Virus record (IMG/VR): IMGVR_UViG_2651869748_000011
Strand: one strand, 5' to 3'
Length of the DNA stretch: 15,748 nucleotides
Source: a virus
Lineage: Duplodnaviria; Heunggongvirae; Uroviricota; Caudoviricetes
Position numbers and translations under genes: made by a program. Below the pieces are notes generated by a model. That model saw nothing but the letters and a program-made list of their open reading frames with translations. It did no database searches and had not been told where the DNA came from. Within the stretch, counting starts at the first letter, position 1; every line of letters starts with the position of its first letter. Positions 909 to 15,748 of the stretch are shown here, piece after piece.

Positions 909-1092
909 CTCTTTCACTCCATCCGCGATGAACCATAAGAACATCGTTGACGATGGCGTGCATTTTCCCGTCTTTATCATCAACGTATTTTCTGACCGTA
1001 CCGCGACTACATTTCAGTCTGCGTGCTACTTCTGTCTGGTTTCCGTATGCTTCAACGAGCATGTCTGGAATGGTTTTTACTGAGAACGTCAT
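886..1092 (-). CDS. ninH: NinH (lambda orf68)
   Basis: 68-aa [39 protein letters not shown]...; position between ninG and ninI follows lambda nin order; HTH-like segment. Confidence 0.85.
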
Positions 1093-1700: not shown

Positions 1701-1969
1701 TATGGTTCGCTCCAGTAATTCTCAATTGCAGCAGCCATTCTCTGCATCCACTCTGCCAGCTTTAACGCGGCTTCTCTTTCAGAACCACATTTAGGGAAAT
1801 CCTTCATTTCCATGCTGGCCTTATATGTTCTGAATGCCAGGTCTCCGGTAATAACCAGCTCCTGATCAAGCACCGAGCGTTTATTCCGGTGTTGAACGTA
1901 ATAGACAGATTCAGTCCGCATTTCTTCTCTGTCTTTTTTGAAGGAAATAAGCTCAGAGAAATCACTCAT
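1700..1969 (-). CDS. Hypothetical 89-aa protein between ninF and ninG (not present in lambda at this position)
   Basis: ATG at 1969-1967 overlaps the ninF stop (ATGAGTGA); stop overlaps the ninG ATG, so it is translationally coupled within the nin operon. No family recognised. Confidence 0.6.
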
Positions 1970-2138
1970 CGTCTTCTTCCTCGTACATTGAGCTATTCGG
2001 ATCGCTCATCAGTTCTGCGCAGCAGTGCTCACACACATGAACTTCCAGCACATGCAGCTTCTGACCGCAGTTAGCGCACGTTAAAGCCCGCTCGACGCTT
2101 TCTTTCTGGTATTGAAGAGATTGGGATGGGCTAAGCAT
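1962..2138 (-). CDS. ninF: NinF (58 aa)
   Basis: Not in the ORF track (under 60 aa). Reverse-complement of 1962-2138 translates to [58 protein letters not shown], matching lambda NinF as recalled; CxxC...CxxC Zn-ribbon. Confidence 0.85.
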   Translation of the reverse strand: MLSPSQSLQYQKESVERALTCANCGQKLHVLEVHVCEHCCAELMSDPNSSMYEEEDDE

Positions 2139-2490
2139 TATTGGCGTCCTGCATCATGAGAAAGACAATCATGGCGGCGCGGAGGGAATTTTCATGTATA
2201 GCTAGCTTAGATTTACAGTCGGCCACACCACGTGCACCCCACTCGTCTTCATCGAGATTGATGATGCTAATCCTGTACTTCTCAATAATCGGCCATGAGG
2301 CGCTAGGATCATTGCAGTAGTCAGGCAAAGGGTTTAATGGCTCAAAAGTTGTATCAGCATTTCCGTAATACCATTTGTTGGTGTTATTCCCTGATGTTTC
2401 CGGTTTACATGCCCAAAGGCCTTTAAAAATTATGTCTCCTACCATTCTGTTAATTTCAAAATCACTTAACTGTGAATAATCCATTGTCAT
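2131..2490 (-). CDS. Hypothetical nin-region protein, possibly NinX-like (119 aa), lying between ninE and ninF
   Basis: ORF 2131-2526 begins at a GTG inside ninE; the more likely start is the ATG at 2490-2488, which overlaps the ninE TGA (ATGA). The ninE-X-ninF position matches P22/HK97-type nin regions. Family assignment is tentative. Confidence 0.55.
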
Positions 2491-2663
2491 TTCCTCGCAC
2501 GATGTCTTAGCCACCGGATATCCCACAGGTGAGCCGTGTAATTGAAGGTTTTTACGTCAGATTCTTTTGGGATTGGCTTGCGTTTATTTCTGGAGCGTTT
2601 CGTTGGAAGGTATTTGCAGTTTTCGCAGATGATGTCGGTGATACTTCGTCGCTGTCGTCTCAT
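2487..2663 (-). CDS. ninE: NinE (58 aa)
   Basis: [58 protein letters not shown] matches lambda NinE as recalled; ATG at 2663 overlaps the methyltransferase stop. Confidence 0.88.
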
Positions 2664-3187
2664 GCCGCCCTCCTGACGCCCTGCCCGATCGCCATCAATG
2701 CCGCTTTGGATACGGTAGTAAACATCCGTCGAGGACTGATGAACGGTCGCCAAATCAGCAGCATGGAACCTTTGCTGTTTCCCTTCTTCTCCAGCCCTGT
2801 CGATGGTTCGATAAAATTAATCCGTCCATCAGTGATAATACGAACTTCGTCAACACTCTCCAGAGCCTTGCTGAACCATCCGACAGACATATCCTCTGGC
2901 ACAAGCATCACTACCGTCTGTCGCTGTTGTATGCACTGCTCAGCGGCTTTTTCCACCCACGGCCTGATATTGCTGTACGGTGGGTTATTCCAGATTGCAC
3001 CGTGGCTTACCCACTCAGAATTGAGCGCGTCGTCGGCCTCAGTTAACCAGTGAGCGCACAGAGCATTTTTGTCGCTCGCTGCCGAATCCAGCCAGAATCC
3101 AAACTCAATATCCAGTGCATCAAAAAGCCAAAGCGGCGTTTGCCAGCAGTCCTTGTCGTGTGCTGGCGTATTTGATTTGATAGTCAT
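2660..3187 (-). CDS. Phage DNA N6-adenine methyltransferase (Dam-like orphan MTase) occupying the ninC/ninD slot
   Basis: [31 protein letters not shown]...; NPPY catalytic motif (AIWNNPPYS) typical of N6-adenine MTases; ATG at 3187 overlaps the ninB stop (ATGA). Confidence 0.8.
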
Positions 3188-3624
3188 GCAGCCCGATCTC
3201 CCCATCTCGCTTTCCACTCCAGAGCCAGTCTCGCTTCGTCTGACCACTTAACGCCACGCTCTGTACCGAATGCCTGTATAAGCTCTAATAGCTCCGCAAA
3301 TTCGCCTACACGCATCCTGCTGGTTGACTGGCCTATTACCACAAAGCCATTCCCGGCAAGGTTAGGAACAACATCCTGCTGCTTTAATGCTGCGGTAAAC
3401 ACACACTTCCAGCTTTCTGCATCCAGCCAGCGACCATGCCATTCAACCTGACGAGAGACGTCACCTAAGCAGGCCCATAGCTTCCTATTTTGGTCTAAGC
3501 TGCGGTTGCGTTCCTGAATGGTTACTACGATTGGTTTGGTTGGGTCTGGAAGGATTTGCTGTACTGCGTGAATAGCGTTTTGCTGATGTGCTGGAGATCG
3601 AATTTCAAAGGTTAGTTTTTTCAT
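3184..3624 (-). CDS. ninB: NinB recombination protein (lambda orf146)
   Basis: From MKKLTFEIRSPAHQQNAIHAVQQILPDPTKPIVVTIQERNRSLDQNRKLWACLGDV... 146 aa matching lambda NinB as recalled; strong SD (GGAGAGGGAAG) upstream of the ATG at 3624. Confidence 0.92.
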   Translation of the reverse strand: MKKLTFEIRSPAHQQNAIHAVQQILPDPTKPIVVTIQERNRSLDQNRKLWACLGDVSRQVEWHGRWLDAESWKCVFTAALKQQDVVPNLAGNGFVVIGQSTSRMRVGEFAELLELIQAFGTERGVKWSDEARLALEWKARWGDRAA

Positions 3625-3639
3625 GACTTCCCTCTCCCC

Positions 3640-3672
3640 CAAATAAAAAGGCCTGCGATTACCAGCAGGCCT
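3640..3672 (-). terminator. tR2-like rho-independent terminator between ren and ninB
   Basis: On the minus strand: AGGCCTGC-(8-nt loop)-GCAGGCCT followed by TTTTTATTTG; 8-bp GC-rich stem plus U-tract; matches the lambda tR2 position. Confidence 0.8.
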
Positions 3673-3697
3673 GTTATTAGCTCAGTAATGTAGATGG

Positions 3698-3988
3698 TCA
3701 TCTTTTAACTCCATATACCGCCAATACCCGTTTCATCGCGGCACTCTGGCGACACTCCTTAAAAATCAGGTTCGTGCTCATCTTTCCTTCCCGTTCTTCC
3801 CTGGTAGCAAACCGGTAATACACCGTTCGCCAGACCTTACCTTCGATAACCAGAAGACCTGCCCGTGCCATTTTAGCCGCGGCCTGATTTATGCTGGTTA
3901 CTGTTGCGCCTGTTAGCGCGGCAACGTCCGGCGCACAGAAGCTATTATGCGTCCCCAGGTAATGAATAATTGCCTCTTTGCCCGTCAT
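3698..3988 (-). CDS. ren: Ren (Rex-exclusion escape protein), 96 aa
   Basis: MTGKEAIIHYLGTHNSFCAPDVAALTGATVTSINQAAAKMARAGLLVIEGKVWRTVYY... matches lambda Ren; ATG overlaps the P stop. Confidence 0.92.
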   Translation of the reverse strand: MTGKEAIIHYLGTHNSFCAPDVAALTGATVTSINQAAAKMARAGLLVIEGKVWRTVYYRFATREEREGKMSTNLIFKECRQSAAMKRVLAVYGVKR

Positions 3989-4686
3989 ACACTTGCTCCT
4001 TTCAGTCCGAACTTAGCTTTAATTTCTGCGATCTTCGCCAGAGCCTGTGCACGATTTAGAGGTCTACCGCCCATAACAGGAAGTTGTTTTACTGGTTCAG
4101 GTATCGTCTCACCACGGTTAATTCGCGCTGTCATACAGGTCAGTTCATCGGCAGCCTTGCGCCGTAATTCCGCATCAGTAAGCGCATTGGCCCGCATGTT
4201 CTGATACAGGTTGGTAACCAGCCAGTAGTGCGCGTTTGATTTCCACGGATAAGACTCCGCATCCGGATACAGGCCTCGCTTCCGGCAATACTCGTAAACC
4301 ATATCAACCAGCTCGCTGACGTTTGGCAGTCCGGCGATAACGGATGCTTCTTCCCGGCACCATGCAACAAACTGCCCGGGTGATGGCAGAAATGGTCGAT
4401 TCTGCCGACGGGCTACGCGCATTCCTGCGTTAACCTGTTCCATCGTGGTGATCCCGTTTTCCCGAAAAGCCAGAACCCACTGGCGACGGATTTCGTTCAC
4501 TTCGTTCTGGTCACGGTTAGCCAGGCTCGCCGGGAAAGTTGCCAGTAACTGGCTGAACACACCGTTGATGATCTGCGCTACCTGCTGTACCTGCGGCTTT
4601 TCGTCGTACTGTTCCGGCATGTTGTTGGCGATCCGACGCATCTGCTCACGGTCAAAGTTAACCATCTGTGCGGCGATGTTTTTCAT
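3985..4686 (-). CDS. P: Replication protein P (DnaB helicase loader), 233 aa
   Basis: MKNIAAQMVNFDREQMRRIANNMPEQYDEKPQVQQVAQIINGVFSQLLATF... matches lambda P; start overlaps the O stop. Confidence 0.95.
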   Translation of the reverse strand: MKNIAAQMVNFDREQMRRIANNMPEQYDEKPQVQQVAQIINGVFSQLLATFPASLANRDQNEVNEIRRQWVLAFRENGITTMEQVNAGMRVARRQNRPFLPSPGQFVAWCREEASVIAGLPNVSELVDMVYEYCRKRGLYPDAESYPWKSNAHYWLVTNLYQNMRANALTDAELRRKAADELTCMTARINRGETIPEPVKQLPVMGGRPLNRAQALAKIAEIKAKFGLKGASV

Positions 4687-5582
4687 AGATCCACCCCGTA
4701 AATCCAGTCTGTGTTTGTCAGGTCGAGTTTTGGTTTGCTGGCTGTCACGACTGCCTGTTGCTTGTTACGGTTGATTTCGAGCTGGGTCCACTTGTCGCGG
4801 AGTTTGGCCGGACTAAGCACGTTACCGGACCAGAAGTTGTCCTGGCATGCCCAGCGGAACAGCACGCACATGTCGCGGTGGTTACGTCCGTCACGTTCAC
4901 GCATCAGGCGGATATCGTTAGCCCACCCTGCAAAATTCGGTTTTCTGGCTGATGGCGCGATGGTCTTCACCATGTCAAACATCCACTCTGCGGCGGTCAG
5001 GTCTTCTGCTGTCCCCCACTTGCTGCCGCTCTGAATTGCAGCATCCGGTTTCACCACAGAAAGATCGTTTTCTGGCTGGTCAGAGGATTCGCCAGAATTC
5101 TCTGACGAATAATCTTTTCTTTTTTCTTTTGTAATAGTGTCTTTTGTGTCCCTCTGTTTTGAGGGATAGCAATCCCCCAATTTGAGGGATGTTTTATCCC
5201 TCGTTTTAGGGGATTTTCCCTCGTTTTGAGGGATACACCATTCTGAGATGTTTTTATTTGGTCCAAACATGCCGCCTTGCTGCTTGATAATATTCATTCT
5301 GACGAGTTCTAACTTGGCTTCATTGCACCGTTTGACGGGTAACTTTGTAATCTCGCTAAGTTGAGAATCGGTGACTCTGTCCATTGGTTTATTCCACCCA
5401 TAGGTTTTACGCAGAATGGCAAGCAGCACTTTAAACTGTCGCTTGGTCAGATCTGCGCCCGAATAAGCCTCAAGCAGCATATTTGATAGTCTGGCGTAAC
5501 CATCATCGAGATCTGCCACATTACGCTCCTGTCCGGCAAAGTTACCTCTGCCGAAGTTGAGTATTTTTGCTGTATTTGTCAT
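4683..5582 (-). CDS. O: Replication initiator O, 299 aa
   Basis: MTNTAKILNFGRGNFAGQERNVADLDDGYARLSNMLLEAYSGADLTKRQFKVLLAILRKTYGWNKPMD... matches lambda O; the origin iterons lie inside the coding sequence. Confidence 0.95.
   Translation of the reverse strand: MTNTAKILNFGRGNFAGQERNVADLDDGYARLSNMLLEAYSGADLTKRQFKVLLAILRKTYGWNKPMDRVTDSQLSEITKLPVKRCNEAKLELVRMNIIKQQGGMFGPNKNISEWCIPQNEGKSPKTRDKTSLKLGDCYPSKQRDTKDTITKEKRKDYSSENSGESSDQPENDLSVVKPDAAIQSGSKWGTAEDLTAAEWMFDMVKTIAPSARKPNFAGWANDIRLMRERDGRNHRDMCVLFRWACQDNFWSGNVLSPAKLRDKWTQLEINRNKQQAVVTASKPKLDLTNTDWIYGVDL
5100..5233. other. ori-lambda: four iterons plus adjacent AT-rich region, inside O
   Basis: Four ~18-bp inverted-symmetry repeats of the type TCCCTCnnTTTGAGGGA at about 5149-5166, 5173-5189, 5197-5213 and 5217-5233; AT-rich tract at about 5100-5148 (cttttcttttttcttttgtaatagtg). 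Confidence 0.9.
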
Positions 5583-5592
5583 AATGACTCCT

Positions 5593-5669
5593 GTTGATAG
5601 ATCCAGTAATGACCTCAGAACTCCATCTGGATTTGTTCAGAACGCTCGGTTGCCGCCGGGCGTTTTTTA
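5593..5669 (+). ncRNA. oop: oop antisense RNA (~77 nt), overlapping the cII 3' end
   Basis: Plus-strand terminator CGCUCGG-UUGCCG-CCGGGCG followed by UUUUUU at 5643-5668, antisense to the cII 3' end. The 5' end is inferred from the lambda arrangement (start about 10 nt ahead of the O ATG), not seen directly. Confidence 0.65.
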
Positions 5670-5908
5670 TTGGTGAGAATCGCAGCAACTTGTCGCGCCA
5701 ATCGAGCCATGTCGTCGTCAACGACCCCCCATTCAAGAACAGCAAGCAGCATTGAGAACTTTGGAATCCAGTCCCTCTTCCACCTGCTGATCTGCGACTT
5801 ATCAACGCCCACAGCTTCCGCTGTCTTCTCAGTTCCAAGCATTGCGATTTTGTTAAGCAACGCACTCTCGATTCGTAGAGCCTCGTTGCGTTTGTTTGCA
5901 CGAACCAT
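5615..5908 (-). CDS. cII: Transcriptional activator cII, 97 aa
   Basis: MVRANKRNEALRIESALLNKIAMLGTEKTAEAVGVDKSQISRWKRDWIPKFSMLLAVLEWGVVDDDMARLARQVAAILTNKKRPAATERSEQIQMEF matches lambda cII; start taken at the ATG at 5908. Confidence 0.95.
   Translation of the reverse strand: MVRANKRNEALRIESALLNKIAMLGTEKTAEAVGVDKSQISRWKRDWIPKFSMLLAVLEWGVVDDDMARLARQVAAILTNKKRPAATERSEQIQMEF
5886..5899 (+). promoter_or_regulatory. cII-binding site of PRE (TTGC-N6-TTGC), directing plus-strand transcription toward cI
   Basis: ttgcgtttgtttgc on the plus strand just inside the cII 5' end, as in the lambda PRE -35 region. Confidence 0.7.
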
Positions 5909-5987
5909 ATGTAAGTATTTCCTTAGATAACAATTGATTGAATGTATGCAAATAAATGCATACACCATAGGTGTGGTTTAATTTGAT

Positions 5988-6019
5988 GCCCTTTTTCAGG
6001 GCTGGGATGTGTAAGAGCG
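5988..6019 (-). promoter_or_regulatory. nutR (boxA CGCTCTTAC, boxB GCCCTGAAAAAGGGC), with the tR1 region downstream toward cII
   Basis: Minus-strand sequence cgctcttacacatcccagccctgaaaaagggcatcaaa; boxB hairpin at 5988-6002, boxA at 6011-6019; palindrome TATGCAAATAAATGCATA at about 5944-5961 in the tR1 region. Confidence 0.85.
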
Positions 6020-6027
6020 GGAATATC

Positions 6028-7383
<1,356 letters not shown>

Positions 7384-7433
7384 TCCCCACCTCAATCTCG
7401 ATAACCAAAAAACAAACTATTTTCCGTTTAAAA

Positions 7434-7502
7434 ACAATGGAGTTTGTTTTTCATGCCCCTTTTTTACAATATTTCTTGTTTACAACATACAATCTTTCTT
7501 GT
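7434..7502. promoter_or_regulatory. 434-type left operator region (OL) and PL promoter upstream of nutL and N
   Basis: 14-bp ACAA-N6-TTGT sites: ACAATATTTCTTGT (7466-7479), ACAATCTTTCTTGT (7489-7502), and a weaker candidate ACAATGGAGTTTGT (7434-7447). Confidence 0.65.
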
Positions 7503-7548
7503 AATTTTAAGCCATCAGCAGGACGCACTGACCACCATTGAAGGTGAT

Positions 7549-7578
7549 GCTCTTAAAAATTAAGCCCTGAAGAAGGGC
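7549..7578 (+). promoter_or_regulatory. nutL (boxA GCTCTTAA, boxB GCCCTGAAGAAGGGC)
   Basis: Plus-strand sequence gctcttaaaaattaagccctgaagaagggcagcattcaaagcag matches lambda nutL as recalled. Confidence 0.88.
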
Positions 7579-7736
7579 AGCATTCAAAGCAGAAGGCTTT
7601 GGGGTGTGTGATACGAAACGAAGCATTGGCCGGAAGTGCGAATCCGGATTAGCTGCAAATGAGCCAATCGTGGGGTGTTTTCGTTCAGGACTACGACTCA
7701 CACACACCACCAAAGCTAACTGACAAGAGAATCCAG

Positions 7737-8060
7737 ATGGATGCACAAACACGCCGCCGCGAACGTCGCGCAGAGAAACAGGCTCAATGGAAAGTAGCAA
7801 ATCCCCTGTTGGTTGGGGTAAGCGCAAAACCAGTTAACCGCCCTATTCTCTCGCTGAATCGCAAACCGAAATCACGAGTAGAAAGCGCACTGAATCCGAT
7901 AGACCTTACAGTGCTGGCTGAATACCACGAACAGATTGAAAGCAACCTGCAACGTATTGAGCGCAAGAATCAGCGCACATGGTACAGCAAGCCTGGCGAA
8001 CGCGGCATAACATGCAGTGGACGCCAGAAAATTAAGGGAAAATCGATTCCTCTTACCTAG
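7737..8060 (+). CDS. N: Antiterminator N, lambda type (107 aa)
   Basis: MDAQTRRRERRAEKQAQWKVANPLLVGVSAKPVNRPILSLNRKPKSRVESALNPIDLTVLAEYH... arginine-rich motif; matches lambda N; the longer 7659 start in the ORF track is disfavoured. Confidence 0.93.
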   Translation: MDAQTRRRERRAEKQAQWKVANPLLVGVSAKPVNRPILSLNRKPKSRVESALNPIDLTVLAEYHEQIESNLQRIERKNQRTWYSKPGERGITCSGRQKIKGKSIPLT

Positions 8061-8615
8061 TTACTTAGATATTGGCCTTGGCTTTATCTCAATATTATAT
8101 GGATCATAGCTGGCAACTAATTCAGTCCAGTAAATATCCTCAATAGGGAATAATATATGCTTCCCGTTCCATCGGGAAAAAGTTTTGTTCAACACACCAA
8201 GCTCAATCAACTCACTAATGTATGGGAATTGTTTTGATGTAACCACATACTTCCTGCCTTCATTAAGGGCTGCGCACAAAACCATAGATTGCTCTTCTGT
8301 AAGGTTTTGAATTACCGATCGCACTTTATCGTTTTGCATCTTAATGCGTTTTCTTAGCTTAAATCGCTTATATTTGGCGCTGGCAATAGCTGATAATCGA
8401 TGCACATTAATTGCTAGCGAAAATGCAAGAGCAAAGACGAAAACATGCCACACATGAGGAATACCGATTCTCTCATTAACATATTCAGGCCAGTTATCTG
8501 GGCTTAAAAGCAGAAGTCCAACCCAGATAACGATCATATACATGGTTCTCTCCAGAGGTTCATTACTGAACACTCGTCCGAGAATAACGAGTGGATCCAT
8601 TTCTATACTCATCAA
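8061..8615 (-). CDS. sieB: Superinfection exclusion protein SieB (membrane protein), 184 aa
   Basis: Abuts N tail-to-tail as in lambda; hydrophobic segments MYMIVIWVGLLLLSP and HVWHVFVFALAFSLAI; matches lambda SieB as recalled. Confidence 0.82.
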   Translation of the reverse strand: MMSIEMDPLVILGRVFSNEPLERTMYMIVIWVGLLLLSPDNWPEYVNERIGIPHVWHVFVFALAFSLAINVHRLSAIASAKYKRFKLRKRIKMQNDKVRSVIQNLTEEQSMVLCAALNEGRKYVVTSKQFPYISELIELGVLNKTFSRWNGKHILFPIEDIYWTELVASYDPYNIEIKPRPISK

Positions 8616-8739
8616 ACTGTAGGGGTTGTAATAGTTTATCCGATTTCTCGCTGTAGGGGTACACGAGAACCACCGAGCCTGATGTGGTTAAAAGACAGGC
8701 ACAATCTTTACTACCGCAATCCACTATTTAAGGTGATAT

Positions 8740-8826
8740 ATGGAAGAAGAATTTGAAGAGTTCGAAGAGCATCCGCAGGATGTAATGGAACAGTACCAGG
8801 ACTATCCGTATGACTACGACTATTGA
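8740..8826 (+). CDS. Small acidic 28-aa ORF upstream of, and overlapping, ral; doubtful gene
   Basis: MEEEFEEFEEHPQDVMEQYQDYPYDYDY; ATG preceded by AAGGTGA; not in the ORF track because of its size. Confidence 0.3.
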   Translation: MEEEFEEFEEHPQDVMEQYQDYPYDYDY

Positions 8827-8989
8827 TAAGAATCAATGGTGTGGACAATTCAAGCGATGCAATGGATGCAAGCTGCAATCGGAATGCATGGTTAAGCCTG
8901 AAGAAATGTTTCCTGTAATAGAAGATGGGAAATATGTCGATAAATGGGCAATACGAACGACGGCAATGATTGCCAGAGAACTTGGTTAA
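8810..8989 (+). CDS. ral: Ral (restriction-alleviation protein) with a premature in-frame TAA; 59 aa here versus about 66 aa in lambda
   Basis: MTTTIDKNQWCGQFKRCNGCKLQSECMVKPEEMFPV.EDGKYVDKWAIRTTAMIARELG then TAA; the same frame continues as QNNKAA-TGA (stop at 9008-9010), matching the lambda Ral C-terminus as recalled. Confidence 0.75.
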   Translation: MTTTIDKNQWCGQFKRCNGCKLQSECMVKPEEMFPVIEDGKYVDKWAIRTTAMIARELG

Positions 8990-9109
8990 CAGAACAACAA
9001 AGCTGCCTGATAGTGGCCTTTATTTTTGGCATAAATAACAGAATAAACACTGCACTGAACCGCCCCGGGAATCCTGGAGACTAAACTCCCTGAGAAAGAG
9101 GTAAACAGG

Positions 9110-9436
9110 ATGACTAAAAATACTCGTTTTTCCCCTGAAGTCCGTCAACGGGCAGCCCGTATGGTTCTGGAAAGTCAGGGCGAATATGACTCACAATGGG
9201 CGACAATTTGTTCCATTGCTCCAAAGATTGGCTGTACGCCGGAGACTCTGCGTGTCTGGGTTCGCCAGCATGAGCGGGATACCGGGGGCGGTGATGGAGG
9301 GCTCACCACCGCTGAACGTCAGCGTCTGAAAGAGCTGGAGCGTGAAAATCGTGAACTGCGCCGCAGTAACGATATCCTTCGCCAGGCTTCCGCTTATTTT
9401 GCGAAGGCGGAGTTCGACCGCCTCTGGAAAAAATAA
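9110..9436 (+). CDS. IS3-family transposase OrfA (HTH/leucine-zipper part)
   Basis: [60 protein letters not shown]...; A6 run at the orfA/orfB overlap is the likely programmed -1 frameshift window. Confidence 0.9.
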
Positions 9437-10323
9437 TGCCGCTGCTGGATAAGCTGCGTGAGCAGTACGGGGTCGGACCGCTATGCAGCGAACTGCATAT
9501 TGCCCCGTCAACGTATTACCACTGTCAGCAACAGCGACATCATCCGGATAAACGCAGTGCCCGTGCGCAGCGCGATGACTGGCTGAAGAAAGAGATACAG
9601 CGCGTATACGATGAAAATCACAAGGTATACGGTGTGCGTAAAGTCTGGCGTCAGTTGTTACGGGAAGGAATCAGAGTGGCCAGATGCACTGTGGCACGTC
9701 TCATGGCGGTTATGGGACTTGCCGGTGTTCTCCGGGGTAAAAAGGTCCGCACTACCGTCAGCCGGAAAGCCGTTGCCGCATGCGACCGCGTAAACCGTCA
9801 GTTCGTGGCAGAACGTCCAGACCAGTTGTGGGTGGCTGATTTTACCTGGGTAAGCACATGGCAGGGCTTCGTTTATGTGGCGTTCATCATTGATGTGTTC
9901 GCCGGATACATCGTGGGATGGCAGGTCTCATCATCCATGGAAACAACATTCGTGCTGGATGCACTGGAGCAGGCGTTGTGGGCCCGTCGGCCGTCCGGCA
10001 CAATCCATCACAGTGATAAAGGTTCTCAGTATGTATCGCTGGCCTACACGCAGCGGCTTAAGGAAGCCGGATTACTGGCATCAACAGGGAGTACTGGCGA
10101 CTCGTATGACAACGCGATGGCGGAGAGCATCAATGGTCTTTACAAAGCGGAGGTAATACACCGTAAGAGCTGGAAAAACCGTGCAGAAGTGGAACTGGCC
10201 ACACTCACGTGGGTGGACTGGTATAACAATCGACGATTGCTGGAAAGGCTGGGCCATACTCCCCCGGCAGAAGCAGAAAAAGCTTATTATGCTTCCATCG
10301 GAAACGATGATCTGGCAGCCTGA
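9436..10323 (+). CDS. IS3-family transposase OrfB (DDE integrase-like catalytic domain)
   Basis: [15 protein letters not shown]...WVADFTWVSTWQGFVYVAFIIDVFAGYIVGW...HHSDKGSQYVS...DNAMAESINGLYKAEV; rve-type DDE domain. Confidence 0.9.
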   Translation: MPLLDKLREQYGVGPLCSELHIAPSTYYHCQQQRHHPDKRSARAQRDDWLKKEIQRVYDENHKVYGVRKVWRQLLREGIRVARCTVARLMAVMGLAGVLRGKKVRTTVSRKAVAACDRVNRQFVAERPDQLWVADFTWVSTWQGFVYVAFIIDVFAGYIVGWQVSSSMETTFVLDALEQALWARRPSGTIHHSDKGSQYVSLAYTQRLKEAGLLASTGSTGDSYDNAMAESINGLYKAEVIHRKSWKNRAEVELATLTWVDWYNNRRLLERLGHTPPAEAEKAYYASIGNDDLAA

Positions 10324-10365
10324 GTTCACAGATAAAACACTCTCCAGGAAACCCGGGGCGGTTCA

Positions 10366-10554
10366 CTGCGTGTGTGGGTTCGTCAGCATGAGCGGGATAC
10401 CGGGAGTGGTGATGGTGGACTCACCACCGCTGAACGTCAGCGTCTGAAAGAGCTGGAACGTGAAAATCGTGAACTGCGCCGCAGTAACGATATCCTTCGC
10501 CAGGCTTCCGCTTATTTTGCGAAGGCGGAGTTCGACCGCCTCTGGAAAAAATAA
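10366..10554 (+). pseudogene. 5'-truncated orfA remnant of the second IS element
   Basis: Encodes ...[60 protein letters not shown] with no native start codon or left inverted repeat. Confidence 0.8.
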
Positions 10555-11441
10555 TGCCGCTGCTGGATAAGCTGCGTGAGCAGTACGGGGTCGGACCGGT
10601 ATGCAGTGAACTGCATATTGCCCCGTCAACGTATTACCACTGTCAGCAACAGCGACATCATCCTGATAAACGCAGTGCCCGTGCTCAGCGCGATGACTGG
10701 CTGAAGAGAGAGATACAGCGCGTATACGATGAAAATCACAAGGTATACGGTGTGCGTAAAGTCTGGCGCCAGTTGTTACGCGAAGGTATCAGGGTGGCCA
10801 GATGTACAGTGGCGCGCCTCATGGCGGTTATGGGACTTGCCGGTGTTCTCCGGGGTAAAAAGGTCCGTACTACCGTCAGCCGGAAAGCCGTTTCCGCAGG
10901 CGACCGCGTAAACCGTCAGTTCGTGGCAGAACGTCCTGACCAGCTGTGGGTGGCTGATTTTACTTACGTCAGCACATGGCAGGGCTTCGTCTATGTGGCG
11001 TTCATCATTGATGTGTTTGCCGGATGTATCGTGGGGTGGCGAGTCTCATCGTCTATGGAAACGACATTCGTGCTGGATGCACTGGAGCAGGCGTTGTGGG
11101 CCCGTCGGCCGTCCGGCACAGTCCATCACAGTGATAAAGGTTCTCAGTATGTATCACTGGCCTATACGGAGCGACTAAAAGAAGCAAAACTGCTGGCATC
11201 AACAGGGAGTACAGGTGACTCGTATGACAACGCGATGGCGGAGAGCATCAATGGTCTTTACAAAGCGGAGGTAATACACCGTAAGAGCTGGAAAAACCGT
11301 GCAGAAGTGGAACTGGCCACACTCACGTGGGTGGACTGGTATAACAATCGACGATTGCTGGGAAGGCTGGGTCATATCCCTCCGGCAGAAGCAGAAAAAG
11401 CTTATTATGCTTCCATCAGAAACGATGATCTGGCAGCCTGA
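10554..11441 (+). CDS. IS3-family transposase OrfB of the truncated element (probably not expressible as OrfAB)
   Basis: 295-aa ORF about 95% identical in protein to copy-1 OrfB (e.g. FAGCIVGWRVSSS versus FAGYIVGWQVSSS). Confidence 0.8.
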   Translation: MPLLDKLREQYGVGPVCSELHIAPSTYYHCQQQRHHPDKRSARAQRDDWLKREIQRVYDENHKVYGVRKVWRQLLREGIRVARCTVARLMAVMGLAGVLRGKKVRTTVSRKAVSAGDRVNRQFVAERPDQLWVADFTYVSTWQGFVYVAFIIDVFAGCIVGWRVSSSMETTFVLDALEQALWARRPSGTVHHSDKGSQYVSLAYTERLKEAKLLASTGSTGDSYDNAMAESINGLYKAEVIHRKSWKNRAEVELATLTWVDWYNNRRLLGRLGHIPPAEAEKAYYASIRNDDLAA

Positions 11442-11713
11442 GTTCACAGATAAAACACTCTCCAGGAAAACCGGGGCGGTTCAAATAACATTGTGCGTAC
11501 TCCTCTTGAGAAGGTGAGAACTATCGGTATCGCAGACACAGTTATGCCTACGGGTCTCCCCGCATCGGTCATTCTCAAAAGGTTTAAAATAGGGTTAGGT
11601 TTGATCACTCTGAACGATCAATCGAAGACATTACGATTGGAACAAACGATCAATAGGTATGTGGTTATTTGCTAAGCTGCGACAACCTTTACAAAGACAC
11701 TCAGGAATGTTTC

Positions 11714-12022
11714 ATGCCCAAATTAGCTATTAGCTTATTACTTTACTTGGCCTGCTTTTATGCAGTTGGATATGGCGCTGGATATATAACAGGTGGAATA
11801 ACTTGGCACACACTGTATATGCTTGAACGTATAATTACCGTAGCCCTACTTGCATTCATTCCAGTGTTTATCTTTGCGGCTTTATTAAATGCATCCAAAA
11901 GACAAGGAATAATAAAATCACTTTCTGTCTCAGCGATTAATTTAATCCCTTCGGCTATCGCATTACTTATAGGATTTACTGACGCAGTGACCAGAAAGTT
12001 TCTTACTTATTTTCTCGGTTAA
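11714..12022 (+). CDS. Small hydrophobic membrane protein (102 aa, about 3 predicted TM helices), AT-rich gene
   Basis: MPKLAISLLLYLACFYAVGYGAGYITGG...ERIITVALLAFIPVFIFAALL...INLIPSAIALLIGF; SD AGGAA 9 nt upstream; its 3' end overlaps the convergent 63-aa gene by about 20 bp. Confidence 0.55.
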   Translation: MPKLAISLLLYLACFYAVGYGAGYITGGITWHTLYMLERIITVALLAFIPVFIFAALLNASKRQGIIKSLSVSAINLIPSAIALLIGFTDAVTRKFLTYFLG

Positions 12023-12194
12023 CTGACATATTGCGAATGACCAACTGTTCTATTAGCTCATTACGAGAATAAAATGGTCGGTCATTCGTAGCCGCTTTAT
12101 CCACGCCAAGCATCGACAATAGAATAGAAGTGGGAAGCCCCCGGTAACGCAGGGTCAAACGGCCTTCGGGAGTGCGTGGGTCAATCATAGCCAT
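12003..12194 (-). CDS. Hypothetical 63-aa protein, translationally linked to the upstream 161-aa gene
   Basis: ATG at 12194 sits 2 nt after the upstream TAA and is preceded by GGAG; MAMIDPRTPEGRLTLRYRGLPTSILLSMLGVDKAATNDRPFYSRNELIEQLVIRNMSVNRENK. Confidence 0.5.
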   Translation of the reverse strand: MAMIDPRTPEGRLTLRYRGLPTSILLSMLGVDKAATNDRPFYSRNELIEQLVIRNMSVNRENK

Positions 12195-12196
12195 TG

Positions 12197-12682
12197 TTAA
12201 AGTCTCCACTCACAGCGACCGACACGTAGCTCCTCAAACTCCTCTTTCGAGACGAGTTGTCCAGCCCTGTAGTGCGATACCGTGTGCTTCTTAATGAATG
12301 CCTTAGAGTCCGGCGTGATGTCGTCCGAAGATGCTACAGCGGCCTGTACGCTGGCACTGGAGGTCATAGACACAAAGGCATCCGCTACAGCTATTCCGTA
12401 CTCAAAGTCCAGCCACTCGCCAAACTTGACGGCGGACGTGGGGTCAGCAAGCCATGACGTACCGAGGCGACCCATATCAACTTTCTTTATGCGGCGGTTT
12501 TTCTGCCCCATAAGATAGCGCCCGACTTTGGTCTGAGCGAAACGCTTAACCATTGTCTTCTCGGTGTCTTCTACCTTACCAATCTGAATACCGACCCGGC
12601 GAATTTCATCCAATCGGAACAATCCGTCTTGACTGGTGAGGTCCTGACCGAAGATATGGATAGTGTATTCTTGTTGAGACAT
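12197..12682 (-). CDS. Hypothetical 161-aa protein, possibly KilA-N-like DNA-binding domain
   Basis: MSQQEYTIHIFGQDLTSQDGLFRLDEIRRVGI...GRLGTSWLADPTSAVKFGEWLD resembles the KilA-N conserved core (G-T-[WY]-x-H/A...W-L motif); strong SD AAAAGGAG upstream of the ATG at 12682. Assignment is from memory. Confidence 0.6.
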   Translation of the reverse strand: MSQQEYTIHIFGQDLTSQDGLFRLDEIRRVGIQIGKVEDTEKTMVKRFAQTKVGRYLMGQKNRRIKKVDMGRLGTSWLADPTSAVKFGEWLDFEYGIAVADAFVSMTSSASVQAAVASSDDITPDSKAFIKKHTVSHYRAGQLVSKEEFEELRVGRCEWRL

Positions 12683-12905
12683 ATCGTTGTACTCCTTTTA
12701 TCTGCATCCTGAAGCCGCATCCTGCCGCCTACTCAAAGCCCCCAACGATAGGGAGACGGCAGGCAACAAGACGCAGATAGAATGACTTTGAGATTTGATG
12801 ATTAGTGTCGGCGGTGGCACTTATTTAAAACGAAAGGACAACAGCATATTTCCGCATGACTTGACGCATCAAGGCCAGAGGCAGAAATAAGTATTTGCTC
12901 GGTGT

Positions 12906-12929
12906 CGTTCCTAAGGTGATAGTTTAGTC
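12906..12929 (-). promoter_or_regulatory. Second, weaker phage-RNAP promoter-like copy sharing the same -18 to -5 block
   Basis: Minus strand GACTAAACTATCACCTTAGGAACG; a 14-nt block (GACTAAACTATCAC) is identical to the upstream copy, but the initiation region is degenerate. Confidence 0.3.
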
Positions 12930-13447
12930 AAACAGTAATGAACTTCGGAGAACTTGACTCGAAAGTGTTCAGGACTTCCAGTGAGACCCGAAGTATGGAG
13001 ATCATATTATAGCGACCATAGTTTACTTCGGACTGACAGGACTGGAGGCTGGACTTAAAGTTCTTCTTATTGGAATTGTGATAACACAATCCATAACAAG
13101 ATAAACTCATGGTCTCCTCAAGCCTGCTGGTCAAGACTCAAAGCTCCAACCTCAGACACCACCACTGGTCTAACCTCTTTGAGTTTCCGCCTGTCCACAA
13201 ATGGATGGCAGACCTCAGCAATGATGTCTTGGTTCTTCAGTTATCCGCGCAGCGATTATCACAGAGCCAACTTAAAGTCGGATGTGGTCTTCTGCTCCCC
13301 GCCTGTCAAAAGGGAAGATAACCTACGTTAAAAGAGAATGGTCTCAGGCCAAGGTGATTTAACACTAGGCGTCTGCGGATGGTTTCCAATCGGTCCGCTA
13401 CCGGAAGCCTGAGACTATATGAATGTGTGGGTCGGTGACTTAGGGCC

Positions 13448-13470
13448 TCTCCCTATAGTGATAGTTTAGT
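13448..13470 (-). promoter_or_regulatory. T7-family single-subunit RNA polymerase promoter-like sequence (candidate), predicted start G at 13453
   Basis: Minus strand ACTAAACTATCACTATAGGGAGA; positions -8 to +6 (TCACTATAGGGAGA) are identical to the T7 consensus, while -17 to -9 differ (a different specificity region); located 18 bp downstream of the 219-aa gene stop. Confidence 0.45.
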
Positions 13471-13488
13471 CCCCCTTCCCCGTCAGCC

Positions 13489-14148
13489 CTACTCGTTAGC
13501 GGCCTGTTGCTGTTCCCTCGCTTTCCGGTCCCGGTCTTCAATGCCCTTAAGCGCCCGTTCCGGCATACTGTTAAACATGGCTTCGACTTCTTTCGGTCGA
13601 GTAATCTGCTCAGTGACAATAATGTTCAGCAGCTTAAAGAGACCATGCGCCAACTGAGGGTCGTCATCAATGTTAATTTCACCCGGATGTACCGCCTGAT
13701 TGCCAACAATACGACAGATGTCAGCAGCTCGCTGGACCAGTGGAGACAGCCCTTTAGCTACAAGGGACTTAATGTCCGTGTCGATATGCTTCCCCGGCTC
13801 ACCGAGATGGACCATCAGCTTTTGAAGACTTAAGCGCAGGAGTGCGGCAGCGCCCTTAGGTGACAGATTAATGATGCTTCTGGCTTCCATGTAGTCGGAC
13901 TTACAGTCTTCTGGCATGTCAGGATTAGGCAGCTCAACACTACCAGCCGCAGGAATCATCATATTGCCTTTATACCAATAAGCATTTTCATAGCAATGTT
14001 GACAATATGATAAGTGGAAATCAGTTTCCATATAAGTAGAATGAGGCGCAACTCCCACCATTGACCGCCAGCTTTGCTTGGAATAAACACCACAGTGCGG
14101 GCAATTAAAAGCTTTACCATCAAACACCGCCGGATAATACTCAGCCAT
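13489..14148 (-). CDS. 219-aa protein with N-terminal Zn-ribbon (CPHCG...CQHC) and a C-terminal region possibly DUF4145/HEPN-like; translationally coupled to the integrase
   Basis: [25 protein letters not shown]...[13 protein letters not shown]...; C-terminal motif [17 protein letters not shown]; its ATG (14148-14146) overlaps the integrase TGA (ATGGCTGA). Family call is tentative. Confidence 0.6.
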
Positions 14149-15748
14149 TTACTCCAGTCTCCTTATAAACATCAGCCATCACATTAACCAATCTATCTAC
14201 CTCGACTTCTTTCGCATACCTGTCATAGGTAATCGACCCTGAGCTATGACCCATAATCGCCTGAGCATACGCTAACCCGACCCCATGTTGTTTTAACTGG
14301 GTCGCCACTGTATGTCTGAATGAGTGGAACGCTAAGCCGCTACGGTCAGCGAGGACTTTAGGTAGCAACGTTCTGTTAAACCATTTGCTCACCTGCTCAC
14401 CGTAGCCGTTCTTCATCAGCTTGAGGCCATCGAATACCATAGCATTATCACCCTTAGCCTTTCTACGGTCTTCCACGAGTGACATAAAGTCAGCCAATAA
14501 AAAACCATAAGCACCATCTACCAACGGGACACAGCGGTCACTATGGGCGTTCTTGATGCTCTTACCCGGTAGGCTGCTATCGTCTTCGTTGATATGGATA
14601 TACACGGTCCCGGCCTCAGTGGTCCTGACGTCTTTGACCTGAAGCTGAGCCACCTCATTAAGTCTTGCTCCAGTGATTGCCGCCAGAGCAGTGACGTAAT
14701 AGTGGTAGGGCTTACCTGAGGTCTTCTGAGAGTACGCTTTAGCGGCGACCAGTAGTTGCCCTACCTGCTCAGGACTGAACGCATCACGAGCGTCGGAGGC
14801 TTTACGCTGCGGGACTTTCAGCTCAAGACCTTCGGTCAGGTTCTTAGCTATCAAGTCGTTGCGTACCGCCCACTTAAACACAGCAGCCATCTTGATAAGA
14901 TATTTATTGTTGATGGTAACGACATCCAAACAGTCAGTCTTAGACTCCCGGTTCAGCAGGTCAGACAGCGGCATAGACTTAAAGCGTTGCTTGCGGTTCT
15001 TCGGTATCTGCTGGAGGACTTCACGGACCCTGAGCATATCTGAACGGGTCGCCTTGCTGACATCCTGAATATCCAGATAGTCGAATATCTCGATTAACGT
15101 AGAGTGAGACGCTCGGTTCTCGCTTAGGGTCGCTGGCTTCCAGTTCTGAGCGTTCTCCTGCTCGTACTGCTCAATGAGAGACGCGAGGGTCAGTGCTTTA
15201 GGCTCGGGGACTTCAGGCTCTGCCAATACAGATAGGGAGACGGACGGTCTTAGACTGCCAGTCTCAGGCTCAAGGTAAGACAACAGGCCAGAGGTATCGC
15301 CTTTGAGTCTATCCTGACACGCTTTAAGCACACCGATAACGTCATTGATATAGCGATGCTGGTCTACAGTCAGATGCTCAGTCGCTACAGCTTCCCGAAG
15401 GTTGGACTTGATGTCATCGTACTGGTCAACGTAGAGCTGGTAGGACTCAGGGTCGTTCAGGTCATCGCGGCTGACACTAAGTTCCCACTCGACAATGGTC
15501 TTCAGGTGTTCCCGTAGCTCCTCATAAGAGGCGTTAGGGTTGTCTGCGTGGATTGCTTTAAGTGCTGACTTGATGTGCCGTGAGTGAGCCATAGCGGTAC
15601 GTCTATCCTTGGTCCGTAAAGATACTGACGCTAGTTTATAACGGTTGTGAGAAGGAAGCGAAGCGGTCAGGCGACTAGTGGTCTTCATCCTAAGACGGAT
15701 GTAAAAGACACCGTTACGCTGATAAAGGTAGGTTCTTGAATTGAGCAT
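14141..15748 (-). CDS. Tyrosine site-specific recombinase / integrase (535 aa), unrelated to lambda Int
   Basis: C-terminal catalytic residues: R in [12 protein letters not shown]-x-x-R in [10 protein letters not shown] in [11 protein letters not shown]; N-terminus [20 protein letters not shown] typical of large-N-terminus integrases; its ATG is the last 3 bases of the window. Confidence 0.85.

What the first reader, a model, noticed from the sequence alone, without database searches (positions are those of the whole stretch)
12942..13031. Mutually exclusive hairpin candidates in the leader RNA (ACTTCGG / CCGAAGT / ACTTCGG)
The 7-mer ACTTCGG occurs at 12942-12948 and 13025-13031 with its exact complement CCGAAGT between them at 12988-12994. 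On the minus-strand transcript the central element can pair with either flank (7 or 8 bp), which is the topology of an attenuator or riboswitch-like switch. The surrounding ~800 bp has no convincing ORF, so a structured RNA is plausible.
Basis: seen in the sequence. Interest (0 to 1): 0.45.

Follow-up and report, generated by a model that had tools for sequence, protein, structure and literature searches.

The report
Hairpin in a phage-promoter-driven leader RNA
The three short complementary words are real, but they are not a genetic switch: two of them form an ordinary hairpin at the tail of a long, structured, non-coding RNA that a small E. coli island appears to make only when a T7-like phage brings in its own RNA polymerase.

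Summary
ACTTCGG lies at 12942-48 and 13025-31, and CCGAAGT at 12988-94. The pattern is unusual for the 806-nt gap (1.2% of shuffles) but not for the whole window (about 15%).

The riboswitch or attenuator reading is not supported.
- The upstream pairing (13025-33 with 12986-94) dominates the fold (P about 1). The alternative pairing has P about 0 and is 6.6 kcal/mol worse.
- The third element is replaced or deleted in two of the island's sequence variants.
- There is no compensatory covariation for either helix, no U-tract anywhere in the leader, and no Rfam hit.
- The overlapping 60-aa ORF is frameshifted in most variants.

The gap 12683-13488 is the promoter region of a known island type, the "tandem T7-like promoter" islands of Chen & Schneider (2006).
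- The layout is tyrosine integrase, PD-T7-4 defence gene, then a perfect Kayfunavirus-type phage promoter (13448-13465, minus strand).
- A decayed second promoter lies at 12908-12929, followed by a 161-aa gene.

Between the two promoters lies an RNA of about 370 nt (13045-13415, minus strand) with strong compensatory covariation across five genera and no Rfam family. The finding's upstream hairpin sits just 3' of it. It has positional counterparts with unrelated stem sequence in two divergent lineages, so it is probably a real but accessory stem.

The parts
13448..13471 (-). P1: intact T7-group (Kayfunavirus/K1F-type) phage RNA polymerase promoter, GACTAAACTATCACTATA|GGGAGA. The predicted transcription start is G at 13453.
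   Evidence: The core is matched exactly. The 21-mer ACTAAACTATCACTATAGGGA is identical to the annotated phi6.5 promoter of Kayfunavirus Ro45lw. A 45-nt query hits 403 phage records, with 8-10 sites in each listed ~40-kb genome, those identified being Autographiviridae. It also hits 21 IMG/VR contigs, 20 of them about 40 kb.
13045..13415 (-). Conserved structured leader RNA with four domains: I 13341-13415, II 13235-13327, III 13141-13229, IV 13045-13119. Domain IV is a long hairpin holding the palindrome GGATTGTGTTATCACAATTCC (13072-13092) and the SD/ATG of the pseudo-ORF.
   Evidence: RNAalifold on 25 variants gives 96 core pairs with 98.8% of cells paired and 17 pairs with compensatory changes. 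No shuffle of 500 reaches this, and slid controls give 1-3. Domain I across genera has 13 of 19 pairs compensatory. Covariance model R1 finds exactly one copy per island locus and none in the 22 T7-like phage loci L018-L039. Many G-U pairs make the structure specific to the minus strand.
12986..13033 (-). Hairpin formed by the finding's upstream and central elements: GUCCGAAGU (13033-13025) pairs with ACUUCGGGU (12994-12986) around a loop of about 30 nt with a short inner stem. It is probably an accessory 'domain V' of the leader RNA.
   Evidence: It is in the MFE and centroid structures, with pair probabilities 0.64-1.0 in the full 773-nt transcript. The stem cores CCGAAG and CTTCGG are invariant in 12 of 12 E. 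coli variants while the loop varies, and the end pairs change only U-G to C-G or A-U to G-U. Divergent lineages L016 and L052 carry a hairpin of the same size at the same place with an unrelated stem (ACACGAUGU/ACAUCGUGU and ACACGAUGC/GCAUCGUGU). It is absent in L004, L040 and L044.
12942..12949 (-). Third element (UCCGAAGU on the minus strand), the proposed alternative partner. It belongs to the cassette just upstream of promoter P2.
   Evidence: Pairing probability with the central element is 0.0. It is replaced by a tandem-promoter cassette in L013-L015, L045, L055 and L056, deleted in L004 and L040, and altered in L011. Only 75.5% of cells pair. L016 and L052 have no third element.
12908..12929 (-). 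P2: decayed copy of the second phage promoter, GACTAAACTATCACCTTAGGAA. It is intact (CACTATAGGGACC) in sister islands.
   Evidence: It forms direct repeat D1 with P1 and has 3 mismatches in the core. Intact versions sit at the same alignment position in L009, L010, L012-L015, L046, L047 and L061.
12699..12779 (-). Long hairpin immediately 5' of the Shine-Dalgarno sequence of the 161-aa gene. It is the last element of the leader and is conserved across genera.
   Evidence: It is inverted repeat I1, is present in the MFE, and in the consensus fold has 2 compensatory pairs and many wobble-compatible changes.
12197..12682 (-). 161-aa gene of unknown function, the first ORF downstream of the phage promoters.
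   Evidence: ORF list. It has no Pfam, PHROG, PADLOC, NCBIfam or PDB match. Other islands carry a Rha-family gene (PF09669) in the same slot, behind the same leader and the same MSQQE start.
13489..14148 (-). PD-T7-4 (DUF4145) anti-phage defence gene, the variable cargo slot of the island.
   Evidence: PADLOC PDLC04109 at 1.7e-99 and Pfam DUF4145. Other islands hold a different 202-aa gene or nothing in this slot. The literature notes that PD-T7-4 often overlaps an integrase gene (PMC9519451).
14141..15748 (-). Tyrosine integrase of the island. The ORF starts (ATG) at 15748, the last base of the window; its product is 535 aa.
   Evidence: Pfam PF00589 at 8.2e-19. In complete genomes it lies next to tRNA-Gly.

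Best explanation
The three 7-mers lie in the untranslated leader, about 770 nt long, of a 'tandem T7-like promoter' island. This is a small integrase-bearing element inserted at tRNA-Gly that carries phage-type promoters but no phage-type RNA polymerase gene.

When a T7-group phage infects, its RNA polymerase should start at P1 (about 13453) and run leftward. The intact promoter matches Kayfunavirus (K1F-like) phages. The polymerase first makes a structured RNA of about 370 nt (13045-13415), then the segment holding the finding, and then the 161-aa gene.

Within that segment the upstream and central elements fold on themselves as soon as they are made, giving a stable 9-bp stem with an internal loop. 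This is an accessory structural stem at the 3' edge of the structured RNA. The third element is part of the interchangeable cassette in front of the second promoter and pairs with nothing in particular. There is no alternative-hairpin switch.

Shown here: promoter identity, island architecture, non-coding status, covariation of the upstream RNA, energetics, and the pattern of presence and absence of the three elements. Inferred: that the phage polymerase actually transcribes the locus, and that the hairpin serves RNA stability, processing or architecture.
For: Promoters:
- P1 is identical over 21 nt to an annotated Kayfunavirus promoter and recurs 8-10 times in each listed ~40-kb phage genome (Autographiviridae where identified).
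- In the 16 related island loci scanned (L001-L017 apart from L002, the window's own sequence in another genome), all 40 promoter-core matches, plus the window's own one, lie in this gap and point at the 161-aa or Rha gene.

Island:
- The layout integrase, variable cargo, gap, small genes recurs at tRNA-Gly or ynfE/F in 173 of 5426 E. coli genomes and in four other genera.
- The island type is named in Chen & Schneider 2006 (title seen).

Non-coding status:
- The 60-aa ORF keeps its length in only 4 of 12 variants, one of which (L011) is frameshifted internally, and it shows 10 nonsynonymous against 2 synonymous codon variants.
- The plus-strand ORF is broken in relatives.

Structure:
- The upstream RNA covaries strongly.
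- The e1:e2 pairing has P about 1 and e2:e3 has P about 0.
- The e1:e2 stems are invariant while the loop varies.
- L016 and L052 carry analogous hairpins with unrelated stems and no third element.
Against: - No transcript data exist for this locus. Host-polymerase read-through from the integrase/PD-T7-4 genes is not excluded, because no terminator is predicted between them and the leader.
- The e1:e2 helix has no true compensatory change within its own lineage.
- The local fold is not significantly more stable than shuffles, z = -1.31.
- The hairpin is missing from one variant of the island (L004, L040, L044), so it cannot be essential.
- The window's island is truncated by IS3 at 11481 and its second promoter is decayed, so this copy may be inactive.
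Confidence: 0.65

Rival explanations
1. Pure coincidence. None of the three elements has any role. The e1:e2 hairpin is just what a random 130-nt stretch of this composition would form, and its conservation reflects the low divergence of the E. coli islands.
For: The local fold has z = -1.31, with 21 of 200 shuffles as stable. A triple of this kind is expected 0.195 times per window. No compensatory change occurs in the lineage that has it. It is absent in L004, L040 and L044.
Against: The two 6-nt stem cores are invariant in 12 of 12 variants while the 30-nt loop between them carries many substitutions and indels. All three variable stem positions change only to other standard pairs, with one unpaired cell in 107. 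Two divergent lineages have a hairpin of the same size at the same position with a different stem sequence.
Confidence: 0.2
2. A real regulatory switch. Either e1:e2 or e2:e3 forms, depending on a ligand, a protein or a translating ribosome, and this controls the downstream gene.
For: The isolated duplex energies are equal, -10.3 and -10.2 kcal/mol. In the window's own sequence an ORF with a good Shine-Dalgarno runs through all three elements, so a ribosome could in principle melt e1.
Against: - P(e2:e3) is about 0, and forcing it costs 6.6 kcal/mol.
- e3 is missing or replaced in at least 9 of 25 variants.
- The ORF is frameshifted or truncated in most variants.
- No U-tract or T7 class II signal lies anywhere in the leader.
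- No start codon or Shine-Dalgarno is near e3.
- There is no Rfam hit.
- T7-type polymerases are several times faster than ribosomes (established knowledge), which uncouples translation from transcription.
Confidence: 0.05
3. The words act as DNA, not RNA: two direct copies and one inverted copy of a binding site for an island protein such as the integrase, an excisionase, the Rha-like protein or a replication protein.
For: The core hexamers are invariant in the lineage that has them. The neighbouring perfect palindrome at 13072-13092 shows that DNA-type symmetry exists in this region.
Against: Only 7-8 nt are shared and the flanks are not similar. The elements are deleted or replaced in other islands that carry the same integrase and the same downstream genes. 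The positional counterpart in L016 and L052 conserves pairing rather than sequence, which is the signature of RNA.
Confidence: 0.07
4. The region encodes a small protein (60 aa, ATG 13110 to stop 12928) and the repeats are incidental codons.
For: A strong Shine-Dalgarno (GGAGGAGA) lies 3 nt before the ATG, and the first ~28 codons are well conserved at the DNA level, with a dozen scattered substitutions.
Against: Predicted products are 34, 42, 60, 66 or 76 aa with unrelated C-termini, caused by 1-2-nt indels and stops. There are 10 nonsynonymous against 2 synonymous codon variants in the conserved part. The ATG is lost in L004, L052 and L016. The conserved DNA coincides with the domain IV hairpin. 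No family matches.
Confidence: 0.03

Closest known systems
Tandem T7-like promoter islands of enterobacteria (Chen & Schneider, Nucleic Acids Res 2006, 34:1133; title seen, paper not held, content recalled from memory of the abstract)
   Same: A tyrosine integrase lies upstream. Two to four T7-group promoters sit within a few hundred bases, all pointing at a handful of small phage-like ORFs. There is no RNA polymerase gene. Insertion is at a tRNA gene, and islands are mosaic with one another.
   Different: This copy has one intact and one decayed promoter and is cut by IS3. To my knowledge the covarying RNA between the promoters and the defence-gene cargo slot were not described there.
Transcription attenuators (trp-type leaders) and riboswitch expression platforms
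   Same: Three consecutive segments in a 5' leader, of which the middle one can in principle pair with either neighbour.
   Different: There is no terminator U-tract, no conserved leader peptide, no conserved aptamer, no conservation of the alternative helix, and the predicted occupancy of the alternative is zero. The likely polymerase is a phage single-subunit enzyme that is not coupled to ribosomes.
RNase III processing hairpins of T7 mRNAs (the R sites, several of which lie just downstream of promoters; from my own knowledge)
   Same: Imperfect hairpins placed shortly after phage promoters and just before ribosome-binding sites, in transcripts made by a T7-type polymerase. The long domain IV hairpin and the hairpin at 12699-12779 have this placement.
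   Different: No sequence similarity to any phage beyond the promoter. Cleavage was not tested. The e1:e2 stem (9 + 5 bp) is short for an RNase III substrate.
Phage satellites with helper-triggered expression and a defence hotspot next to the integrase (P4-like elements, PICIs)
   Same: A small integrative element whose integrase sits at one end next to a variable anti-phage cargo gene, with expression apparently tied to an infecting phage.
   Different: The trigger here would be direct use of the helper's RNA polymerase through its promoters, not derepression. No capsid-remodelling or packaging genes are recognisable. The presumed helpers are virulent T7-like phages.
Promoter-primed replication origins (the T7 primary origin with tandem phi1.1A/B promoters; ColE1 RNA II; from my own knowledge)
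   Same: Tandem phage promoters are followed by a long structured untranslated transcript of a few hundred nucleotides.
   Different: The stretch between and downstream of the promoters is not AT-rich (GC 0.37-0.51). There is no evidence of replication from this site.

Membership tests
Tandem T7-like promoter island (Chen & Schneider 2006) | Two or more T7-group promoters in tandem within a few hundred bases, in the same orientation | tested here: met
   The window has P1 perfect at 13448-13465 and P2 decayed at 12908-12929, 542 nt apart. Sister loci have 2-4 intact copies, all in one orientation.
Tandem T7-like promoter island (Chen & Schneider 2006) | Promoters match those of real T7-group phages | tested here: met
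   P1 is identical over 21 nt to the annotated phi6.5 promoter of Kayfunavirus Ro45lw, and each listed ~40-kb phage genome (Autographiviridae where identified) holds 8-10 sites.
Tandem T7-like promoter island (Chen & Schneider 2006) | Tyrosine-recombinase integrase upstream of the promoters; no phage-type RNA polymerase gene in the island | tested here: met
   PF00589 on 14141-15748. The island part 11481-15748 holds only the integrase, PD-T7-4, and the 161-aa, 63-aa and 102-aa ORFs.
Tandem T7-like promoter island (Chen & Schneider 2006) | Short direct repeats (att) at both ends of an island of 4-13 kb | not testable with these tools
   The window ends at the start codon of the integrase gene, before the tRNA-Gly attachment site, and the far end is removed by IS3 at 11481. 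Complete genomes place the island next to tRNA-Gly, but I did not map the repeats.
Transcription attenuator | Terminator hairpin followed by a U-tract, with a competing antiterminator | tested here: not met
   No T-run of 5 or more on the minus strand of the whole leader, and no terminator-like site predicted in 12100-14300.
Transcription attenuator | Conserved translated leader peptide that overlaps the first segment | tested here: not met
   The ORF is frameshifted or truncated in most variants and evolves mostly by nonsynonymous change.
Riboswitch | Conserved aptamer recognisable as a described family | tested here: not met
   Rfam 15 gives no hit in 12600-13600 at gathering score or at E up to 10, apart from three chance matches of 17-18 bits.
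Riboswitch / any RNA switch | Both alternative helices conserved and supported by covariation | tested here: not met
   For e1:e2, 89-99% of cells pair, with no compensatory change among the 12 E. coli variants; the only two in the 25-variant set come from a single divergent, doubtfully aligned row and do not exceed shuffles. For e2:e3, 75-90% pair and the helix is broken or absent in 6-10 of 25 variants.
Structured non-coding RNA (generic criterion) | Compensatory base-pair changes well above shuffled and slid controls, specific to one strand | tested here: met
   Met for 13045-13415, not for the finding's own coordinates. There are 17 compensatory pairs of 96, against 9.7 in shuffles and 1-3 when slid. 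Domain I has 13 of 19. There are numerous G-U pairs.

The most novel reading that the evidence does not exclude
The covarying RNA of about 370-430 nt made from the phage promoter (domains I-IV at 13045-13415, plus the e1:e2 hairpin as an optional domain V) is a previously undescribed class of non-coding RNA. It would be produced only when a T7-like phage supplies its RNA polymerase, and would act in the conflict between island and phage, for example as a replication primer, a decoy for a phage protein, or a processing and translation platform for the downstream genes. Its invariant loop motifs (GAUUGGAAACC, UUAACGUAG, and GACRGGCGG twice) would then be functional contacts.
Probability: 0.45. 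Interest if true: 0.7.

Novelty: new member of a known kind. Interest (0 to 1): 0.45.

Why it matters
The finding as written, a riboswitch-like switch, does not hold up, and on its own it is a minor hairpin. The locus is more interesting than the finding. It belongs to a class of islands that wire their genes to the RNA polymerase of virulent T7-like phages. Sister islands carry tandem promoters of different specificity, and a variable anti-phage gene (here PD-T7-4) sits next to the integrase.

These islands were predicted computationally in 2006. Judging by the literature I could search, they have not been followed up experimentally. The strongly covarying RNA directly behind the promoters gives a concrete, testable object. 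What does an element that a T7-like phage itself switches on need a 400-nt structured RNA for? Answering that would bear on whether virulent T7-like phages have satellites, and on infection-triggered defence.

Tried and rejected
- Rfam at gathering and at E up to 10 found nothing relevant in the gap.
- Megablast and blastn of the gap against 50,697 phage records found no similarity beyond the promoter itself, so the leader is not borrowed phage sequence.
- Sigma-70 promoter and intrinsic terminator scans gave counts at or below chance, with none on the minus strand.
- T7 class II pause signals (ATCTGTT) and U-runs are absent, so the hairpins are not T7-type terminators.
- The small-protein readings on both strands were rejected by frameshifts and substitution pattern.
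- The 161-aa protein gave nothing in Pfam, PHROGs, PADLOC, NCBIfam or PDB. It is not similar to the Rha protein that replaces it in other islands.
I built one for domain I only.
- Adding the three most distant loci with MAFFT misaligned the outer stem of domain I. This was resolved with a separate domain I alignment and the model-based alignment.
- The Chen & Schneider paper is not in the held library. Only its title and the papers that cite it could be seen, and none of the citing papers treats the islands functionally.
- Searches for a described satellite of T7-like phages found nothing relevant.

Full report
OBSERVATION

The 7-mer ACTTCGG is at 12942-12948 and 13025-13031, and its reverse complement CCGAAGT is at 12988-12994, exactly as reported. 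To ask whether this exceeds chance I counted non-overlapping X / rc(X) / X arrangements of any 7-mer within 100 nt. One or more occurs in 24 of 2000 dinucleotide-preserving shuffles of the 806-nt gap. It occurs in 31 of 200 shuffles of the whole window, with a mean of 0.195 per window. The pattern is therefore locally unusual but only mildly so for a reader who scanned 15.7 kb. The only other such triple in the window sits on lambda-type origin iterons inside gene O.

CONTEXT

The window is a composite of three parts:
- a lambdoid prophage segment at 1 to about 9050 (NinG, P, O, cII, cI, N, SieB);
- two tandem IS3-family copies at 9053-11486, each with an ALIL frameshift pseudoknot;
- from 11481 to the end, a truncated small island.

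In complete E. coli genomes this island, of roughly 6-7 kb, sits next to tRNA-Gly (beside actS and the ETT2 locus) or inside ynfE/F. On the window's minus strand it reads as follows: tyrosine integrase, a variable cargo gene, a gap of 0.8-1.6 kb without ORFs, then a 161-aa gene or a Rha-family gene, and a few further small genes. In all, 173 of 5426 complete E. coli genomes have it. Enterobacter, Kluyvera, Shimwellia and Buttiauxella have relatives. The cargo in the window is PD-T7-4 (DUF4145; PADLOC 1.7e-99). This defence gene was noted to overlap integrase genes (PMC9519451).

THE GAP IS A PHAGE-PROMOTER REGION

On the minus strand, 13471-13448 reads GACTAAACTATCACTATAGGGAGA. This is a T7-group promoter. 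Its 21-mer is identical to the annotated phi6.5 promoter of Kayfunavirus Ro45lw. A 45-nt query finds 403 phage records, with 8-10 sites in each listed ~40-kb genome; the one record I opened is Autographiviridae (Kayfunavirus). The 19-mer is in 21 IMG/VR contigs, 20 of them about 40 kb.

A scan of the 16 related island loci (L001-L017 apart from L002, the window's own sequence in another genome) found 40 promoter cores, plus the window's own one. All are in this gap and all point at the 161-aa or Rha gene. They fall into two clusters about 550 nt apart. A cluster often holds tandem pairs that differ in the -12 to -8 specificity region (ACTAT, ACCCT, ACCCA).

In the window the first cluster is a single perfect promoter, P1, with its start at about 13453. 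The second is a decayed copy, P2 at 12908-12929 (CACCTTAGGAA), which is intact in sister islands.

[quoted passage not shown] The paper is not held. From memory of its abstract, it describes integrase-bearing islands of 4-13 kb with 2-3 tandem T7-like promoters and no polymerase gene, and proposes that they are satellites activated by a T7-like polymerase. Only five papers in the searchable library cite it, and none is functional. I found no description of a satellite of T7-like phages.

THE FINDING'S THREE ELEMENTS

Read on the minus strand, the elements are e1 (13032-13025, UCCGAAGU), e2 (12994-12987, ACUUCGGG) and e3 (12949-12942, UCCGAAGU). They lie between the two promoter clusters, in the transcript that would start at P1.

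Energetics.
- The MFE and centroid of both the local 126 nt and the full 773-nt leader pair e1 with e2.
- Pair probabilities are 0.64-1.0 for e1:e2 and 0.0 for e2:e3. Forcing e2:e3 costs 6.6 kcal/mol, although the isolated duplexes are equal in energy.
- e1:e2 is also the 5' pair, so it forms first during transcription.
- The local fold is not significantly more stable than shuffles (z = -1.31).

Comparison. Among 25 distinct variants (E. coli genomes, metagenome contigs, one Enterobacter) there are four forms:
- all three elements present;
- e3 and its surroundings replaced by a tandem-promoter cassette (L013-L015, L045, L055, L056);
- e2 and e3 deleted and e1 mutated to CCAAAGU (L004, L040, L044);
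- unrelated sequence (L016, L052).

For e1:e2 the cores CCGAAG and CUUCGG are invariant wherever present. The terminal pairs vary only U-G to C-G and A-U to G-U, and the loop varies freely, but there is no compensatory change. For e2:e3 only 75.5% of cells pair across the 25 variants.

L016 and L052 have a hairpin of the same size at the same position with an unrelated stem (ACACGAUGU/ACAUCGUGU and ACACGAUGC/GCAUCGUGU). They have no third element.

I conclude that e1:e2 is probably a real but dispensable stem, and that e3 is not its regulatory alternative.

No output module exists. The minus strand of the leader has no T-run of 5 or more and no ATCTGTT. No terminator is predicted. The next start codon is about 245 nt downstream of e3.

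CODING ALTERNATIVES

The minus-strand ORF (ATG at 13110, 60 aa) has a good Shine-Dalgarno. In relatives, however, it gives products of 34-76 aa with unrelated C-termini. It shows 10 nonsynonymous against 2 synonymous codon variants in its conserved first 28 codons, and it lacks the ATG in three lineages. Its conserved DNA is the domain IV hairpin. The plus-strand 70-aa ORF is equally unstable.

WHAT IS STRUCTURED

From about 13415 to 13045 on the minus strand, RNAalifold on 25 variants predicts four domains. Counting on that structure gave 96 pairs, 98.8% of cells paired and 17 pairs with compensatory changes. Shuffles give 9.7 +/- 1.2, none of 500 reaches the observed value, and slid controls give 1-3.

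Domain II exists as two or three sequence "alleles" that differ at many positions yet keep every pair. One example is A-U / G-C / U-A at a single position.

Domain I is recognisable in Kluyvera, Shimwellia and Buttiauxella with an entirely different outer stem. There, 13 of 19 pairs are compensatory. The latter alignment was fitted to the model, which favours the structure.

A covariance model of domain I finds exactly one copy in every island locus and none in the 22 T7-like phage loci L018-L039.

Many pairs are G-U, which would be A-C on the other strand. The structure therefore belongs to the minus-strand RNA, the strand the phage promoters would transcribe. Rfam has no matching family.

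A further long hairpin at 12699-12779, directly before the Shine-Dalgarno of the 161-aa gene, is conserved across genera with two compensatory pairs. The same leader and MSQQE start precede the Rha-family gene in other islands.

MECHANISM

Shown: promoter identity, island architecture, non-coding status, RNA covariation, and the energetics and distribution of the three elements.

Inferred: an infecting T7-group phage's polymerase starts at P1, makes the structured RNA, the e1:e2 hairpin and the rest of the leader, and then transcribes the 161-aa gene. The hairpins serve folding, stability or processing, by analogy with the RNase III sites that follow promoters in T7 (my own knowledge), rather than switching. 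T7-type polymerases outrun ribosomes (established knowledge), which argues further against ribosome-mediated attenuation.

Caveats: there are no expression data, host read-through from the integrase operon is not excluded, and this copy of the island is truncated and has lost its second promoter.

VERDICT

The switch interpretation is not supported. The general idea of a structured minus-strand leader is right, but the strong evidence lies just upstream of the reported coordinates. The locus is a new, damaged member of a known and little-studied island type. The covarying RNA is, as far as I could find, undescribed.

Noticed in passing
window 13045-13415 (minus strand); A4, A5, A7: An RNA of about 370 nt directly downstream of the phage promoter shows strong compensatory covariation. 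It has invariant loop motifs (GAUUGGAAACC, UUAACGUAG, and GACRGGCGG twice), is present once per island in five genera, and has no Rfam family.
   Followed up: yes
L009-L015, L045, L056 and others; window 13448-13471 and 12908-12929: Sister islands carry tandem promoters that differ in the -12 to -8 specificity region (ACTAT, ACCCT, ACCCA), as if to respond to the polymerases of several T7-group phages. The window retains only the Kayfunavirus-type promoter, plus a decayed copy.
   Followed up: partly
window 13239-13323 (domain II): This segment exists as two or three sharply different sequence alleles among otherwise ~90% identical islands, with all base pairs preserved. It looks like cassette exchange or diversifying selection on an RNA helix.
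   Followed up: partly
window 12699-12779 (minus strand): A long hairpin lies just before the ribosome-binding site of the 161-aa gene. It contains a 13-nt tandem duplication (12704-12729) that is single-copy in L001. It is conserved across genera with two compensatory pairs, and its placement resembles that of an RNase III site.
   Followed up: partly
window 12197-12682 and L010/L012/L014: The first gene after the leader is either an unknown 161-aa protein or an unrelated Rha-family protein (PF09669). Both sit behind the same leader and start with MSQQE, so recombination swaps the gene body just inside the start codon.
   Followed up: partly
window 13489-14148 and 14141-15748: The PD-T7-4 (DUF4145) defence gene overlaps the integrase gene by 8 nt. 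The slot is variable: other islands hold a 202-aa gene with a weak HEPN-like hit, or nothing.
   Followed up: partly
window 13072-13092: The near-perfect palindrome GGATTGTGTTATCACAATTCC is invariant in all island variants, at the tip of the domain IV hairpin. It could equally be a protein-binding site on DNA.
   Followed up: no
window 9053-11486: Two tandem IS3-family copies, each with an ALIL pseudoknot (9391-9507 and 10509-10625), cut the island at 11481 and join it to a lambdoid prophage. The island's 163-aa and ~326-aa genes are missing from the window.
   Followed up: partly
window 5140-5240: Repeats of the form TCCCTC-N6-GAGGGAT inside the replication gene O (4683-5582) look like lambda-type origin iterons. 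They were the only other X/rc(X)/X 7-mer triple in the window.
   Followed up: no
window 1-9050: A lambdoid prophage segment with NinG, Dam methylase, P, O, cII, a cro-like HTH protein, an S24 cI repressor, N and SieB. It is not present next to the island in the otherwise identical E. coli genome NZ_CP062871.
   Followed up: no
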